Positions 20,472-25,089 are shown, counted from the stretch's first letter. The stretch: 32,000 nucleotides of DNA from Methylorubrum extorquens (GCA_900234795.1 LT962688.1:4650001-4682000); one strand, 5' to 3'. Numbers and translations: made by a program. Notes: generated by a model from the sequence alone, not told the origin.

Positions 20472-22496
20472 TCAGTGCCGCGGTAAGGTGTGCAGCCCGC
20501 GCAGGAAGAGGTCGACGTCCTCCCGCGTGTTGTAGAAGGCCAGCGAGGCGCGCACCGACTGATCGACGCCGAAGCGGCGCAGCGCCGGCAGGGCGCAGTG
20601 GTGGCCCGAGCGCACCGCGATCCCGAGGGAATCGAGGTGGTGGGCGACGGCCTCGTTGGTGAGGCCATCGACCGTGAAGGACATGACGCTCGCCTTGTTG
20701 AGCGCGGTGCCGATCAGGCGCAGGCCCTTCACATCAGCCAAGCCTTCCTGCGCGTATTCGAGCAGGTCGTGCTCGTAGGCCGCGATCGCCGGCAGGCCGA
20801 CGCTCTCCAGGTAATCGAGCGCTGCACCGAGACCCACCGCGCCGGCGATGTCGGGCGTGCCCGCCTCGAACTTTTCCGGTGCGCCCTTGTAGACGGTCTT
20901 GGCGAAGGTGACGTCCTCGATCATGTGGCCGCCACCCTGCCACGGCGGCATCGCCTCCAAGAGGTGGCGCTTCCCGTACAGGGCGCCGATGCCGGTCGGC
21001 CCGAACACCTTGTGGCCGGAAAACACCAGGAAATCGGCGTCGAGCGCCTGCACGTCGATGGGGATGTGCGGCGTCGATTGCGCGGCATCGACCAGCACCG
21101 GCACGCCGTAGGCATGCGCCAGAGCGATGATCTCCCGGATCGGGTTCACGGTGCCCAGCGCGTTGGCGACATGGGTGATCGAGACGATCTTGGTGCGTCC
21201 CGAGAGCAAAGCCGCGTATTGCTCGAAGATGATCTCGCCGCGGTCGTTGACCGGGATCACCCGGATCGTCGCGCCGGTCGCCTGTGCCAGGAGTTGCCAG
21301 GGCACGATGTTGGCGTGGTGCTCGATGGTCGAGACGATGATCTCGTCGCCCGGGCCGATATTGGCCCGGCCGTAGGAGTTGGCGACGAGGTTGATCGCTT
21401 CCGTGGTGCCGCGCAGAAAGACGATGTCGTCCTTGCTCGGCGCGTTGAGGAAGCGGCGCGTCTTCTCGCGACCGCCCTCGAACAGATCCGTGGAACGCGC
21501 GGCGAGCGTGTGCGCGGCTCGGTGGATGTTCGAGTTGTGGCGGCCGTAGAATTCGCTCGTGGCGTCGATCACGCTCTGCGGCTTGTGGGTGGTGGCCGCG
21601 TTGTCGAGCCAGACGAGGCGATGCCCGTTCACGCTCTGGTGCAGCGCCGGGAAGTCCTTGCGAACGTGCTCGACATCGAACGGCGCGCCGGCCGGAACCG
21701 ACCCGTGCGAGGTCACCCGCGGGGCGGGCCCCGTGTGGCGCGAGGGCTCGACCCGCGGCTGCGCCGCAGCCTTCTTGCTCCTCGCGGGCGGCGGGGCCGG
21801 GCTCAGGAAGTAGTAATCGCCCGTGTTGTCGGGGGCGGGCGCGCTCGGATGCGGGAGCTGGCCGGTGCGCGAGAAATGCTCCTGCGCGGCGTCGCCGCCG
21901 GGCTTGCCGGGATCGCGCGGCACGAGGTGGGGTGCCAGCGCGTGGGCGAAGCCGTTGGCGCGGGGATGGTCGGCCGCGATCTGCCGGTGCAGGTCGGGGC
22001 CACCGGGGATCGCTGCGGCGACGTCGGGCAGGCTCGGCACGAAGAATTCGGGCAGCCGGTTCGGGTTCGTGAACGGATGCACCGAGGGGATCGCCGCCAC
22101 GTCGAACAGGTTTGCGCTCGCCGGCGCGGGCGTCGCGCCGACCGGGTTGGCGTGGGACGGACCGGTCAGGCCCGGCAGGCCGACCGGCGGTGCGCCGAAC
22201 GAGCGCGCGGCCTGCGCCGACAGGTCGGGCTGGAATCCCGACTGCAGCGCGCCCGAGGGCACGGCGGGCGTGCCGAGGGCGGCGCCGGGCAGCGCGGGCT
22301 GCCCGGAACCGGAGGGAAGGGTCTCAAGCCCCTGGGGGACTTGAGGCGTCTGCGGCAGATGGGGCTGGAACGGTGCGCTTCCCGCCTGTCCCTGGCCGGT
22401 GATCTCGCGGGCAAGACGCCCGACGAGATCGGCATGCGCCAGATCGCCCGCGTTGCCGGTCGGAAGACCGAAAGCGGGGGCGTTAGGCGTAGTCAT
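20472..22496 (-). CDS. Cysteine desulfurase (SufS/CsdA group II) with a ~271-aa disordered N-terminal extension; predicted family 2 encapsulin cargo
   Basis: Residues ~272-674 show:
- FDVEHVRKDFPAL...VWLDNAATTHKP
- the PLP lysine motif FLVFSGHKVFGPTGIGALYG
- the catalytic Cys motif AVRSGHHCALP

Residues 1-271 are Pro/Ala/Gly-rich with no fold-like pattern. The ATG at 22494-22496 overlaps the shell gene stop by 14 nt. Confidence 0.93.
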   Translation of the reverse strand: MTTPNAPAFGLPTGNAGDLAHADLVGRLAREITGQGQAGSAPFQPHLPQTPQVPQGLETLPSGSGQPALPGAALGTPAVPSGALQSGFQPDLSAQAARSFGAPPVGLPGLTGPSHANPVGATPAPASANLFDVAAIPSVHPFTNPNRLPEFFVPSLPDVAAAIPGGPDLHRQIAADHPRANGFAHALAPHLVPRDPGKPGGDAAQEHFSRTGQLPHPSAPAPDNTGDYYFLSPAPPPARSKKAAAQPRVEPSRHTGPAPRVTSHGSVPAGAPFDVEHVRKDFPALHQSVNGHRLVWLDNAATTHKPQSVIDATSEFYGRHNSNIHRAAHTLAARSTDLFEGGREKTRRFLNAPSKDDIVFLRGTTEAINLVANSYGRANIGPGDEIIVSTIEHHANIVPWQLLAQATGATIRVIPVNDRGEIIFEQYAALLSGRTKIVSITHVANALGTVNPIREIIALAHAYGVPVLVDAAQSTPHIPIDVQALDADFLVFSGHKVFGPTGIGALYGKRHLLEAMPPWQGGGHMIEDVTFAKTVYKGAPEKFEAGTPDIAGAVGLGAALDYLESVGLPAIAAYEHDLLEYAQEGLADVKGLRLIGTALNKASVMSFTVDGLTNEAVAHHLDSLGIAVRSGHHCALPALRRFGVDQSVRASLAFYNTREDVDLFLRGLHTLPRH

Positions 22497-24294: not shown

Positions 24295-25089
24295 TCAGAT
24301 CCCGTCGCCGAAACCGAAGGACTGATCCATGGTCTGGGCGGGCTCCTCGTCGCTCCGCAGGCGCGAGACGACCCGCGCCGGCACGCCCGCGACGGTGGTG
24401 TGGGCAGGCACCTCGTGCAGCACCACTGCGGCGGCGGCGACCTTGGCACCTTCCCCGACCCGGATGTTGCCGAGCACCTTGGCGCCGACGCTGAGCAGCA
24501 CCCCGCGCGCGATCTTCGGATGCCGGTCGCCACTCTCCTTGCCGTTGCCGCCGAGCGTCACCGACTGGAGGATCGAGACGTCATCGGCCACGACCGTGGT
24601 CTCGCCGATGACGACGCCGGTGGCGTGATCGATGAAAACCCCGGAGCCGATCCGCGCCGCCGGGTGAATGTCGCAGCCGAACACCTCGGAGATGCGGCTC
24701 TGCACGTGCAGGGCGAGCGTCGCCCGGCCCTGATGCCAGAGCCAGTGCGCCACCCGGTAGCCTTCGAGCGCGGCGAAGCCCTTGTAGAACAGGAACGGAT
24801 CGAGATAGCGCCGGCAGGTCGGGTCGCGCTCGCGGATGGCGATGAGATCGCGCACGGCGTGCAGCCCCGCATGCGGGTCGGCCTCGAAGGCGGAGAAGCA
24901 GAGATCGCGCATGGTGAGCCGCGACAGGTCGCCGTCGCCGAGCCGGTGGGCGAGGCGGTAGGCCAGAGCCTCCGACAGGCTGCGCTGGTCGAGCACCGTC
25001 GCCTGGATCAGGCCCGCATAGAGCGGCTCCTCGATCAGCGCAGCCTCGGCCTCGCTCCGCATCGCCGCCCAGACATCCCCCTCCGCCAT
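24295..25089 (-). CDS. cysE: Serine O-acetyltransferase
   Basis: EPLYAGLIQATVLD... N-terminal SAT helical domain, RDPTCRRYLDPFLFYKGFAALEGYRVAHWLW, then hexapeptide repeats DIHPAARIGSGVFIDHATGVVIGETTVVADDVSILQSVTLGG...RHPKI. Start is ATG 25087-25089 (264 aa). GTG 25140, with GGAG 8 nt upstream, is an alternative. Confidence 0.9.
   Translation of the reverse strand: MAEGDVWAAMRSEAEAALIEEPLYAGLIQATVLDQRSLSEALAYRLAHRLGDGDLSRLTMRDLCFSAFEADPHAGLHAVRDLIAIRERDPTCRRYLDPFLFYKGFAALEGYRVAHWLWHQGRATLALHVQSRISEVFGCDIHPAARIGSGVFIDHATGVVIGETTVVADDVSILQSVTLGGNGKESGDRHPKIARGVLLSVGAKVLGNIRVGEGAKVAAAAVVLHEVPAHTTVAGVPARVVSRLRSDEEPAQTMDQSFGFGDGI

What the first reader, a model, noticed from the sequence alone, without database searches (positions are those of the whole stretch)
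20472..25089. Family 2B (cNMP-domain) encapsulin nanocompartment locus with a cysteine-desulfurase cargo and adjacent serine O-acetyltransferase
Seen in the sequence:
- A 463-aa ORF (22483-23874, minus) carries what I recognise as the hallmark blocks of family 2 (SrpI-type) HK97-fold encapsulins. These are TPRFLLRLLPFVDVAGGVYRVNRR, FVDYEIDPREYHLSTIQTILNTHTRVTDLYS and PPTPDDLDELLTLVWKKPAFFVAHPRAIAAFGREATRRGVPPVVVHLFGAPFITWRGVPLVPSDKLP.
- A ~100-aa CAP-like insertion places it in subfamily 2B.
- The next gene overlaps it by 14 nt. It encodes a SufS-type desulfurase (PLP-Lys SGHKVFGPTG, Cys RSGHHCA) preceded by ~271 aa of P/A/G-rich, apparently disordered sequence.
- cysE lies upstream on the same strand.

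Established knowledge: family 2 encapsulins load a desulfurase through a long disordered N-terminal domain, and the cyanobacterial example responds to sulfur starvation. cysE is a commonly conserved neighbour.

Inference: this locus builds a protein shell that encloses cysteine desulfuration, possibly for sulfane sulfur storage or detoxification. As far as I know, the combination of a desulfurase cargo with a 2B shell in an alphaproteobacterium, and the role of the cNMP-like domain, have not been characterised experimentally.
Basis: partly seen in the sequence, partly recalled or inferred. Interest (0 to 1): 0.9.

Follow-up and report, generated by a model that had tools for sequence, protein, structure and literature searches.

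The report
Desulfurase encapsulin operon in Methylorubrum
This is a correctly recognised protein-shell (encapsulin) operon that encloses a cysteine desulfurase, but public databases already annotate it and published surveys already catalogue the type, so only the role of the shell's extra sensor-like domain is still open.

Summary
ORF 22483-23874(-) is a family 2B encapsulin shell (NCBIfam NF041163, 575 bits against a cutoff of 400; Pfam SrpI-like plus cNMP_binding). ORF 20472-22496(-) overlaps it by 14 nt. It is a SufS-type desulfurase behind a 278-aa Pro/Ala/Gly-rich N-terminal domain (NF041166, 807.5 bits against 800). That domain carries both cargo-loading motifs known from family 2A cargo. 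cysE lies upstream.

The window is Methylorubrum extorquens. NCBI already names an identical shell protein "family 2B encapsulin nanocompartment shell protein". Andreas & Giessen (2021) counted 199 family 2B desulfurase operons.

All 80 related loci I fetched, from about ten phyla, keep the shell-then-desulfurase order wherever the contig extends far enough.

The most likely function, by analogy with family 2A systems, is a T=1 shell that turns cysteine into stored elemental sulfur under sulfur-status control.

The sensor-like domain probably does not bind cyclic nucleotides. The phosphate-binding Arg is Pro163. The segment that binds metal in Streptomyces shells is basic here rather than acidic.

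No family 2B desulfurase system has been characterised experimentally.

The parts
22483..23874 (-). Family 2B encapsulin shell gene, 463 aa
   Evidence: NF041163 encap_f2b 575.5 bits (cutoff 400). PF19307 SrpI-like, residues 202-457, E 1e-108. PF00027, residues 104-185. PDB sequence hits: 9BJE E 3e-116, 9BHU 1e-105, 8T6R 2e-98, 6X8M 1e-96. Foldseek top hits are 9BHU, 6X8M and 8T6R. Weak hit to phage major head protein phrog_212, E 7e-9.
23716..23874 (-). N-arm of the shell protein (aa 1-53), including AARNLATATVT and GGVYRVNRR
   Evidence: Conserved in the clade (mean top-residue frequency 0.74). Homologous to the N-arms of solved 2B and 2A shells.
23623..23715 (-). Segment at the position of the Streptomyces metal-binding subdomain (aa 54-84); basic here
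   Evidence: The AF2 model predicts a beta-hairpin plus short helix at 65-81, pLDDT about 76-83. Net charge is +3, against -3 and -5 in S. griseus and S. lydicus. The clade mean is +1.9. Glu of the Streptomyces shells is Ser78 in 159 of 188 sequences.
23305..23622 (-). CNB-fold domain (CBD, aa 85-190) inserted in the E-loop; Asp154, Pro163 and Ala164 at the phosphate-binding cassette; clade-specific Arg142
   Evidence: PF00027 E 9e-10. PKG CNB-B 58 bits, E 1e-14, with FGE..RT of PKG aligned to FGD..PA. Confident AF2 fold, with Foldseek CNB hits at TM (target) about 0.7.
23236..23304 (-). Poorly conserved helical linker (aa 191-213) from the CBD back to the E-loop
   Evidence: Conservation 0.45. 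Predicted helix 186-202.
22486..23235 (-). HK97-like shell-forming domain (aa 214-463)
   Evidence: Conservation 0.80. 312.6 and 305.7 bits to the 2A desulfurase shells 8T6R and 6X8M, against 282-259 bits to the Streptomyces 2B shells. 61% against 54-56% identity.
20472..22496 (-). Cargo gene: cysteine desulfurase with N-terminal cargo-loading domain, 674 aa; overlaps the shell gene by 14 nt
   Evidence: NF041166 807.5 bits (cutoff 800). TIGR01979 SufS 547 bits. PF00266 E 1.5e-147. NCBI names cluster members 'family 2A encapsulin nanocompartment cargo protein cysteine desulfurase'.
21663..22496 (-). Disordered-type cargo-loading domain (aa 1-278)
   Evidence: P 17%, A 16%, G 11%. PAGSQ 55%. 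Length varies from 114 to 442 aa among relatives, while the catalytic domain stays 55-97% identical.
22398..22427 (-). Loading motif 1, LVGRLAREIT (aa 24-33), counterpart of 'LARLANEFFS' in 2A cargo
   Evidence: A motif of this type is found in the first 120 residues of 65 of 74 cargo proteins. Motif defined in PMC8049743.
21804..21818 (-). Loading motif 2, DYYFL (aa 227-231), counterpart of 'AASPYYFLDG' in 2A cargo
   Evidence: [YFW][YF]F[LIVM] is found in the N-terminal domain of 56 of 74 cargo proteins. Motif defined in PMC8049743.
20475..21662 (-). SufS-type PLP catalytic domain with Lys496 (SGHK) and Cys634 (GHHCA)
23875..24294 (-). cysE-shell intergenic region: AT-rich upstream part, promoter-like TTGACC-N17-CTAGTA, about 200-nt leader, AAGGAG ribosome-binding site
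   Evidence: Sequence. GC is 0.55 in a ~69% GC window. TTGAC[CG] is present in 44 of 44 Methylobacterium intergenic regions, against 0.16 per shuffled sequence. No Rfam match.
24116..24135 (-). Dyad GGAAAATCATTCC abutting the -35-like TTGACC; candidate activator site
   Evidence: The dyad plus -35 pattern occurs in 35 of 44 orthologous intergenic regions, against 0.0006 per shuffled sequence.
   Evidence: TIGR01172 221.5 bits (cutoff 210.65). PF06426 plus Hexapep. It lies immediately upstream of the shell in Methylobacteriaceae, Xanthobacter and most Acetobacter loci, and downstream of the cargo in several cyanobacterial loci, one Verrucomicrobia locus and a few other MAG loci.
25226..25429 (-). 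Conserved 67-aa ORF of unknown function directly upstream of cysE; lineage-specific possible accessory
   Evidence: GC3 0.87. Found at the same position in 43 loci, with in-frame indels. 66 protein clusters; nearly all that carry an organism name are from Methylobacterium or Methylorubrum. Called as a gene in public genomes. No family above threshold.
26159..29930 (-). Same-strand organosulfur-acquisition genes: cupin, SsuA-family binding protein, SsuD-like LLM monooxygenase, SfnB-like acyl-CoA-dehydrogenase-fold protein (context, not part of the compartment)
   Evidence: TIGR01728 SsuA_fam 169 bits (cutoff 163.5). Sub-threshold best hits to alkanesulfonate monooxygenase and SfnB. The same block recurs beside the operon, in varying positions, in L020, L030, L033 and L036.

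Best explanation
The locus is a single-shell family 2B desulfurase encapsulin operon of Methylorubrum extorquens.

**Shown by sequence**
- The shell protein is an HK97-fold subunit.
- An insertion of about 155 aa sits in its E-loop. It holds a small hairpin-helix segment and a CNB-fold domain.
- The next gene is translationally coupled to the shell gene. It encodes a SufS-type PLP desulfurase (Lys496, Cys634).
- A 278-aa low-complexity N-terminal domain precedes the catalytic domain. It carries both loading motifs of family 2A cargo.

**Inferred from the solved relatives**
- Sixty shell subunits form a T=1 particle of about 24-27 nm.
- The CNB domains sit outside, around the two-fold axes.
- The cargo N-terminal domain binds the luminal surface near the three-fold axes and drags desulfurase dimers inside.
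- L-cysteine enters through the pores and is converted to L-alanine.
- With no acceptor protein in the lumen, the abstracted sulfur accumulates as elemental sulfur or polysulfide, shielded from cytosolic reductants.
- cysE supplies O-acetylserine for cysteine synthesis.
- The operon has its own promoter with a conserved dyad next to the -35 box. It sits beside sulfonate-scavenging genes. Expression is therefore probably tied to sulfur status.

**The CNB-fold domain**
- It most likely does not bind cAMP or cGMP. The phosphate-binding Arg-Thr is Pro163-Ala164 and the ribose Glu is Asp154.
- It either binds another small ligand that influences the two-fold pore, or it is a structural decoration.
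For: - **Family models:** both proteins score above the curated cutoffs. Pfam domains agree.
- **Solved relatives:** full-length homology to the cryo-EM 2B shells and domain-level homology to the 2A desulfurase shells. Foldseek gives the same hits.
- **Synteny:** the shell is followed directly by a desulfurase in all 80 loci wherever the contig extends far enough. Shell identity to the window ranges from 47 to 98%. The loci span Alphaproteobacteria, Verrucomicrobia, Bacteroidetes, Cyanobacteria, Planctomycetes, Chlorobi, Acidobacteria and Actinobacteria.
- **Translational coupling:** overlapping start and stop codons of -14, -11 or -8 nt are common.
- **Loading motifs:** found in 65 of 74 and 56 of 74 cargo proteins, as defined for SrpI cargo.
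- **Function of the 2A counterpart:** shown experimentally (PMC10836720).
- **cysE linkage:**, and named as an enriched accessory gene in PMC8346489.
- **Sulfur context:**
- **Promoter and dyad:**
- **Phosphate-binding cassette:** residues mapped. S. griseus and M. xanthus CNB domains do not bind cAMP.
Against: - Nothing contradicts the identification.
- The functional steps rest on analogy. No family 2B desulfurase system has been purified.
- The solved 2B shells have large open two-fold pores.
- SrpI knockouts showed no growth phenotype under sulfur starvation.
- The AF2 monomer model is poor outside the CNB domain (mean pLDDT 60.7). It adds little beyond homology.
- I found no expression data for M. 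extorquens.
- The sulfur-starvation link is from gene neighbourhood only, and that neighbourhood is rearranged among Methylobacterium species.
Confidence: 0.85

Rival explanations
1. The CNB-fold domain is a working cyclic-nucleotide sensor. cAMP or cGMP binding gates the two-fold pores and so switches sulfur deposition on or off.
For: - The domain alone scores higher against eukaryotic PKG CNB-B (58 bits, E 1e-14) than against the Streptomyces 2B domains (37-46 bits).
- The cassette length equals that of PKG.
- A minority of desulfurase-type 2B shells keep a canonical cassette. The Planctomycetia MAG locus L063 has FGEIALIKQGPRTANV.
Against: - In this protein the phosphate-binding Arg-Thr is Pro163-Ala164 and the ribose Glu is Asp154.
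- Position 163 varies across the clade (R 10, S 9, A 6, P 3, H 3, K 3 among 45 representatives), so it is not under ligand-binding constraint.
- CNB domains lacking this Arg do not respond to cAMP (PMC11550324).
- Two other 2B shells were tested and do not bind cAMP.
Confidence: 0.07
2. The compartment's physiological role is not storage. It either limits cysteine toxicity or mobilises sulfur from cysteine during starvation, handing it to an external acceptor through the shell.
For: - Nichols et al. raise both possibilities for SrpI, which is induced by sulfur starvation.
- The neighbourhood is sulfur-scavenging rather than sulfur-excess.
- cysE next door would raise cysteine flux.
- Rhodanese acceptors are enriched in other desulfurase operons.
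Against: - The only direct biochemical study found stored crystalline S0 and no need for an acceptor.
- My family scans of the plausible ORFs I selected from this 32-kb window found no rhodanese, SufE or SufU.
- The conserved 67-aa neighbour has no conserved cysteine.
Confidence: 0.3
3. The 463-aa protein is a Crp/Fnr-type transcription factor, as many database entries still call it, or a leftover prophage capsid gene. The desulfurase would then be an ordinary free SufS.
For: - Some sources label homologues 'CRP-like cAMP-binding protein'. Depositors named PDB chains 9BJE and 9BIX 'Crp/Fnr family transcriptional regulator'.
- There is a weak hit to phage major head protein phrog_212.
Against: - There is no helix-turn-helix domain. 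The C-terminal 250 aa are the SrpI-like HK97 domain.
- EshA, the prototype of the 'regulator' annotation, was shown to be a shell.
- The family scans turned up no phage genes (Pfam labels on public gene calls).
- Pairing with a desulfurase holds across phyla.
- The desulfurase has a 278-aa loading domain with both motifs, absent from housekeeping SufS.
Confidence: 0.02

Closest known systems
Family 2B desulfurase ('CD') encapsulin operons catalogued by Andreas & Giessen 2021 (PMC8346489): 199 operons in 9 phyla
   Same: Exactly this arrangement: a CBD-containing family 2 shell, an adjacent desulfurase with a disordered N-terminus, and cysE as an enriched accessory gene. NCBI annotates the identical shell protein with this family name.
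   Different: Nothing in kind. No member of this class has been characterised experimentally.
Family 2A desulfurase encapsulins: S. elongatus SrpI (6X8M), A. baumannii (8T6R), M. smegmatis Mmp1 (8WOL)
   Same: - Same cargo enzyme and the same two loading motifs.
- The HK97 domain is 57-61% identical and scores higher than against the Streptomyces 2B shells.
- cysE association.
- In a rough NJ tree the 2A shells nest among the desulfurase-type 2B shells.
   Different: - 2A shells lack the ~155-aa E-loop insertion.
- The two shell residues next to cargo density in SrpI, F262 and Y273, are Y421 and H432 here. 164 of 189 clade members share that pair.
Family 2B terpene/xylulose-kinase encapsulins: S. 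griseus EshA (9BHU), S. lydicus Enc1/Enc2 (9BJE, 9BIX), M. xanthus geosmin shell
   Same: Same domain order (N-arm, small subdomain, CNB fold, linker, HK97). Full-length alignment with E down to 3e-116. The N-arm is most similar to these shells. The canonical cassette Arg is absent.
   Different: - Different cargo.
- There is one shell gene here, not two.
- The Trp that replaces the cassette Arg in 'essentially all' 2B shells (W176) is absent. HMMER puts Pro163 there and MAFFT puts a gap in 185 of 191 sequences.
- The segment corresponding to the acidic Ca2+-binding subdomain is basic.
- Arg142 is conserved here but is Thr or Val in Streptomyces.
Canonical cyclic-nucleotide-binding domains (E. 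coli CAP, PKG/PKA regulatory domains)
   Same: Same fold, and a phosphate-binding cassette of the same length as PKG CNB-B.
   Different: FGE...RT is FGD...PA. The position of the Arg is not conserved in the clade.

Membership tests
Family 2B encapsulin shell | HK97-type SrpI-like shell domain | tested here: met
   PF19307 E 1.2e-108 over profile positions 4-253 of 254. 57-61% identity to solved 2A shells. Foldseek top hits are family 2 shells.
Family 2B encapsulin shell | CNB-fold (PF00027) domain inserted in the E-loop; the feature that separates 2B from 2A | tested here: met
   PF00027 38.8 bits (cutoff 27.5), residues 104-185. The insertion is bounded by 2A-homologous segments 7-52 and 214-462.
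Family 2B encapsulin shell | Curated equivalog model NF041163 above its cutoff | tested here: met
   575.5 bits against a cutoff of 400, covering profile positions 1-449 of 450.
Family 2B encapsulin shell | Adjacent cargo gene with a disordered terminal loading domain | tested here: met
Family 2B encapsulin shell | Acidic metal-binding subdomain before the CBD (described for S. griseus as conserved across 2B) | tested here: inconclusive
   A hairpin-plus-helix is predicted at 65-81. The segment is net +3, and the Streptomyces Glu positions are Ser78 and Ala81. The paper's text does not name the coordinating residues, so the site itself could not be scored.
Family 2B encapsulin shell | Self-assembly into a 60-subunit T=1 shell with external CBDs | not testable with these tools
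   Needs expression plus EM. Inferred from homology to 9BHU and 9BJE.
Encapsulin-associated cysteine desulfurase cargo | Class V aminotransferase, SufS-type catalytic domain with PLP-Lys and catalytic Cys | tested here: met
   PF00266 491.9 bits. TIGR01979 547 bits (cutoff 475). Lys496 and Cys634.
Encapsulin-associated cysteine desulfurase cargo | Long low-complexity N-terminal loading domain with LARLANEFFS-like and AASPYYFLDG-like motifs | tested here: met
   278 aa, 55% PAGSQ. LVGRLAREIT at 24-33 and DYYFL at 227-231. Motifs from PMC8049743.
Encapsulin-associated cysteine desulfurase cargo | Curated model NF041166 above its cutoff | tested here: met
   807.5 bits against a cutoff of 800, so only just above it.
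Encapsulin-associated cysteine desulfurase cargo | Physical encapsulation and S0 formation | not testable with these tools
   Shown only for 2A systems.
Functional cyclic-nucleotide-binding domain | Phosphate-binding cassette with FGE...R[ST]A | tested here: not met
   Asp154, Pro163 and Ala164 align with the Glu, Arg and Thr of PKG CNB-B. Position 163 varies in the clade.
Crp/Fnr transcription factor (legacy annotation) | C-terminal helix-turn-helix DNA-binding domain | tested here: not met
   No HTH family hit. The C-terminal 250 aa are the SrpI-like domain.

The most novel reading that the evidence does not exclude
The desulfurase-type 2B shells carry a CNB-fold domain that differs from both canonical sensors and the terpene-type 2B domains. 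It has no cassette Arg and no Trp, a clade-specific conserved Arg142, a conserved PxSLR in a basic rather than acidic subdomain, and the Y421/H432 pair at the cargo site.

On the most novel reading, this domain binds a sulfur-status metabolite or a nucleoside-like ligand. Binding would close or open the two-fold pores, so that sulfur is deposited when cysteine is plentiful and released when sulfur is scarce. On the same reading, the CBD-less 2A desulfurase shells descend from such shells by loss of the domain.
Probability: 0.12. Interest if true: 0.65.

Novelty: already known. Interest (0 to 1): 0.3.

Why it matters
As an identification it adds nothing new. RefSeq already names these proteins, and the operon class was counted in 2021.

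Its value is practical. The ligand and role of the CNB-fold domain of family 2B encapsulins is an acknowledged open question (PMC11550324; 2026 geosmin preprint). All three characterised 2B systems carry bulky terpene-pathway or unknown cargo.

A desulfurase-type 2B system has a small substrate, an easy read-out (cyanolysable S0) and well-studied 2A counterparts for comparison. The operon is also present in the M. extorquens strains AM1, PA1 and DM4, which from my own knowledge are standard, genetically tractable model strains. That makes it a convenient place to test whether the domain gates the shell.

The differences found here (Pro163, basic subdomain, Arg142, and a canonical cassette surviving in a few relatives such as L063) give concrete mutants and comparison proteins.

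Tried and rejected
- **Regulatory RNA:** Rfam over the whole window at gathering threshold, and over 23800-26200 at E <= 1, found no riboswitch or leader RNA.
- **Leader conservation:** the ~200-nt leader before the shell gene is not conserved in sequence among Methylobacterium species, so I dropped the idea of a regulatory RNA.
- **Terminators:** the consensus scan found no terminator after cysE or after the cargo gene. Transcript boundaries therefore remain inferred.
- **Shared operator:** I looked by eye for one between the shell promoter, the small-ORF/cysE upstream region and the SfnB-like gene's upstream region. I found only loose GAA/TTC resemblances with different spacing, so I make no claim of a common regulator.
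- **Structure model:** the AF2 model of the shell monomer was confident only for the CNB domain and parts of the A and P domains. It was not used for pore or interface arguments.
- **TrxB-like flavoprotein (18962-19939):** considered as a possible sulfur-reducing partner and rejected. tblastn found no counterpart in any of the 80 related loci.
- **Longer shell start:** the 526-aa start at 24063 was rejected.
- **Literature:** searches for encapsulin work or sulfur-starvation data in Methylobacterium/Methylorubrum returned nothing relevant.

Full report
**1. Observation**

- The shell ORF can be read back to 24063. The 463-aa start at 23874 is the real one. It has an AAGGAG ribosome-binding site 8 nt upstream. 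The NCBIfam profile begins at residue 7. Homologues are 459-465 aa.
- The cargo ORF (20472-22496, 674 aa) overlaps the shell gene by 14 nt.
- The quoted peptide blocks, the PLP-lysine motif (Lys496) and the catalytic cysteine motif (Cys634) are all present.
- GC3 of all three ORFs is 0.87-0.88, typical of real genes in this ~69% GC window.

**2. Identity**

- The shell scores 575.5 bits on NF041163, the family 2B shell equivalog (cutoff 400). It has Pfam SrpI-like (E 1e-108) and cNMP_binding.
- The cargo scores 807.5 bits on NF041166, the encapsulin cargo desulfurase model (cutoff 800). It scores 547 bits on the SufS model.
- By sequence, the closest solved structures are the three cryo-EM family 2B shells (9BJE, 9BHU, 9BIX). 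The family 2A desulfurase shells follow (8T6R, 6X8M, 8WOL).
- An AlphaFold2 model from 107 homologues is confident only for the CNB-fold domain and parts of the shell domain (mean pLDDT 60.7). Foldseek still returns 9BHU, 6X8M and 8T6R first and CNB domains next.
- A weak match to a phage major head family (E 7e-9) fits the HK97 ancestry.

**3. Source and prior knowledge**

- A 100% identical shell protein is in NCBI as 'family 2B encapsulin nanocompartment shell protein [Methylorubrum extorquens]'.
- The exact cargo sequence is SOR31541.1 of M. extorquens. Its cluster includes proteins of strains AM1 and DM4 named 'family 2A encapsulin nanocompartment cargo protein cysteine desulfurase'.
- Four NCBI genomes carry the same locus with the same gene calls.
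- Andreas & Giessen 2021 counted 1281 family 2A and 199 family 2B operons with desulfurase cargo. They named serine O-acetyltransferase and rhodanese as the most enriched accessory genes.
- The same group states that about 9% of 2B systems carry desulfurases.
- The characterised 2B systems are S. griseus 2-MIB, S. lydicus two-component and M. xanthus geosmin. None has desulfurase cargo.
- I found no paper linking encapsulins to Methylobacterium.

**4. Conservation of the operon**

A scan of one genome per species returned 80 loci whose shells are 47-98% identical to this one.
- In every locus where the contig continues, the shell gene is followed directly by a desulfurase gene.
- The taxa are:
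  - Methylobacterium and Methylorubrum, Xanthobacter, Acetobacter and Chelatococcus;
  - Verrucomicrobia;
  - a Bacteroidetes MAG;
  - Oscillatoriales cyanobacteria;
  - Planctomycetes;
  - Chlorobi;
  - Acidobacteria;
  - an Actinobacteria MAG.
- Start-stop overlaps of 14, 11 or 8 nt are the rule in the closer relatives.
- cysE is immediately upstream in Methylobacteriaceae, Xanthobacter and most Acetobacter loci. It lies downstream of the cargo in several cyanobacterial loci, one Verrucomicrobia locus and a few other MAG loci.
- Four loci (L064, L075, L079, L080) have two tandem shell genes. This window has one.

**5. Cargo loading**

- The cargo N-terminal domain varies from 114 to 442 aa. 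It is poorly conserved, whereas the catalytic domain is 55-97% identical.
- Two short motifs persist:
  - an amphipathic LVGRLAREI[YT]-type motif near the N-terminus, in 65 of 74 cargo proteins;
  - a [YF]YF[LIM] motif near the end of the domain, in 56 of 74.
- These correspond to 'LARLANEFFS' and 'AASPYYFLDG', the motifs Nichols et al. defined in family 2A cargo. [quoted passage not shown]
- In SrpI the cargo density lies next to shell residues F262 and Y273. Here those residues are Y421 and H432. The Y/H pair is fixed in 164 of 189 clade members. The remaining members have F, L or M at the first position and Y at the second. The Streptomyces shells, and SrpI itself, have F and Y.

**6. Relationship to 2A and other 2B shells**

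- The C-terminal HK97 domain alone scores 312.6 and 305.7 bits against the A. baumannii and S. elongatus 2A shells. It scores 282, 267 and 259 bits against the Streptomyces 2B shells.
- Identity is 61-62% against A. baumannii and S. elongatus, 57% against M. smegmatis, and 54-56% against the Streptomyces shells.
- The N-arm shows the opposite pattern: it is closest to the Streptomyces shells.
- In a rough neighbour-joining tree without support values, the three 2A desulfurase shells fall among the desulfurase-type 2B shells. The terpene and xylulose-kinase 2B shells form a separate branch.
- This agrees with published remarks that family 2 shells cluster by cargo. It should be taken as suggestive only.

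**7. The CNB-fold insertion**

- Relative to 2A shells, residues ~54-213 are inserted.
- Within the clade this region is far less conserved than the rest. Mean top-residue frequency is 0.44-0.49, against 0.80 for the HK97 domain and 0.74 for the N-arm.
- The domain alone matches PKG CNB-B at 58 bits. The cassette has the same length, but FGE...RT of PKG aligns with FGD...PA (Asp154, Pro163, Ala164).
- Among 45 representatives sharing at most 80% identity, position 163 is R 10, S 9, A 6, P 3, H 3, K 3 and others.
- The Trp that replaces this Arg in S. griseus (W176), said to do so in essentially all 2B shells, is absent here.
- S. griseus and M. xanthus shells do not bind cAMP. Cyclic-nucleotide binding by this protein is therefore unlikely.
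- Three further differences from the Streptomyces shells:
  - The segment corresponding to their acidic Ca2+-binding subdomain is basic. It is +3 here, the clade mean is +1.9, and the Streptomyces values are -3 and -5. Their Glu residues are replaced by a conserved Ser78 and by Ala81.
  - Arg142 on the beta-5 strand is conserved in 42 of 45 representatives but is Thr or Val in Streptomyces.
  - A few relatives keep a fully canonical cassette. L063 has FGEIALIKQGPRTANV.
- I could not determine whether Arg142 faces the pocket.

**8. Surroundings and regulation**

- Upstream on the same strand lie four organosulfur-acquisition genes:
  - an SfnB-like acyl-CoA-dehydrogenase-fold protein;
  - an SsuD-like luciferase-type monooxygenase;
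  - an SsuA-family binding protein;
  - a cupin.
- A divergent SsuA-like binding protein gene follows at 30423. Public gene calls continue it into an ABC permease and ATPase.
- The same four-gene block recurs next to the operon, on either side, in other Methylobacterium species (L020, L030, L033, L036).
- Between cysE and the shell gene is a 420-nt spacer, which is only 41 nt in Xanthobacter. Its first part is AT-rich.
- All 44 Methylobacterium spacers contain TTGAC[CG], followed at ~17 nt by a TA-containing hexamer. In 35 of them a dyad of the GGAA-N5-TTCC type abuts the -35-like box. Shuffles give 0.16 and 0.0006 per sequence.
- The shell-cargo pair therefore probably has its own activator-dependent promoter.

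**9. Mechanism and confidence**

- **Shown:** gene identities, domain architecture, loading motifs, synteny, and loss of the cyclic-nucleotide cassette.
- **Inferred by homology:** T=1 assembly, external CNB domains, and loading by the N-terminal domain at the three-fold axes.
- **Inferred by analogy with the A. baumannii 2A system:** conversion of cysteine to alanine plus stored elemental sulfur.
- **Inferred from neighbourhood only:** control by sulfur status.
- **Main uncertainty:** the state of the two-fold pores. Open pores, as in the solved 2B shells, would not exclude reductants.

**10. Verdict**

The locus is nonetheless an already annotated member of an already catalogued class. I score interest at 0.3. 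What interest there is lies in using this well-studied methylotroph to address the open question of what the 2B CNB-fold domain does.

Noticed in passing
window 25226-25429 (-): A 67-aa ORF directly upstream of cysE (MLSATMLPGDQVVFDRLDLAEALGIWRHARGRVIGIHGQAGRATIDVQFDGHETLQSYLPDLFRRIP). It is conserved at the same position in 43 Methylobacterium/Methylorubrum loci, with in-frame indels. It has no conserved Cys and only a sub-threshold DUF1918 resemblance. Nearly all homologues that carry an organism name are from Methylobacterium or Methylorubrum. It may be a lineage-specific accessory of the cysE/encapsulin locus.
   Followed up: partly
window 24116-24135 (-), within spacer 23875-24294: The dyad GGAAAATCATTCC abuts a TTGACC -35-like box upstream of the shell gene. 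The box is present in 44 of 44 orthologous spacers and the dyad pattern in 35 of 44. The regulator is unknown.
   Followed up: partly
L063:837-2225 (Planctomycetia MAG); also P0112, P0108, L073: A minority of desulfurase-type 2B shells keep a canonical phosphate-binding cassette (FGEIALIKQGPRTANV in L063). The literature says essentially all 2B shells lack the Arg. These are candidates for shells that really do bind cyclic nucleotides.
   Followed up: partly
window shell residues Y421 and H432 (nt ~22579-22614): The two shell residues next to cargo density in SrpI (F262, Y273) are replaced by a fixed Tyr/His pair in the alphaproteobacterial, Verrucomicrobia and Acetobacter subclade (164 of 189). 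Other desulfurase-type 2B shells, SrpI and the Streptomyces shells keep F or L with Y.
   Followed up: partly
L064, L075, L079, L080: These desulfurase operons have two tandem 2B shell genes (three Planctomycetes loci and one Actinobacteria MAG locus). They are candidate two-component desulfurase shells. In L080 the second shell groups with the terpene-type shells.
   Followed up: no
L013 and L020 (Methylobacterium oryzae TC3-10); L005, L039, L040 (M. segetis): More than one copy of the cysE-shell-cargo locus turns up in a single genome assembly.
   Followed up: no
window 4217-4954 and 4988-6433 (-): An MCRA-family (oleate hydratase-like) gene is split into two adjacent ORFs covering profile positions 352-495 and 2-342. 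It is a frameshifted or interrupted gene, or a sequencing error.
   Followed up: no
window ~25784-25965 (-): A short relic resembling a Cys/Met-metabolism PLP enzyme sits in the ~1-kb gap between the cupin gene and the 67-aa ORF. It was seen as a weak PF01053 hit on a public gene call and as blastn matches to L046 and L048.
   Followed up: no
window 18962-19939 (-): A thioredoxin-reductase-like flavoprotein with a CPIC motif lies 530 nt downstream of the cargo gene. It is present in the M. extorquens genomes but has no counterpart in any of the 80 related loci, so it is probably unrelated to the compartment.
   Followed up: yes
window 7554-10604 (+): A large GAF-PAS(x5)-HWE histidine kinase. 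No link to the encapsulin locus is evident.
   Followed up: no
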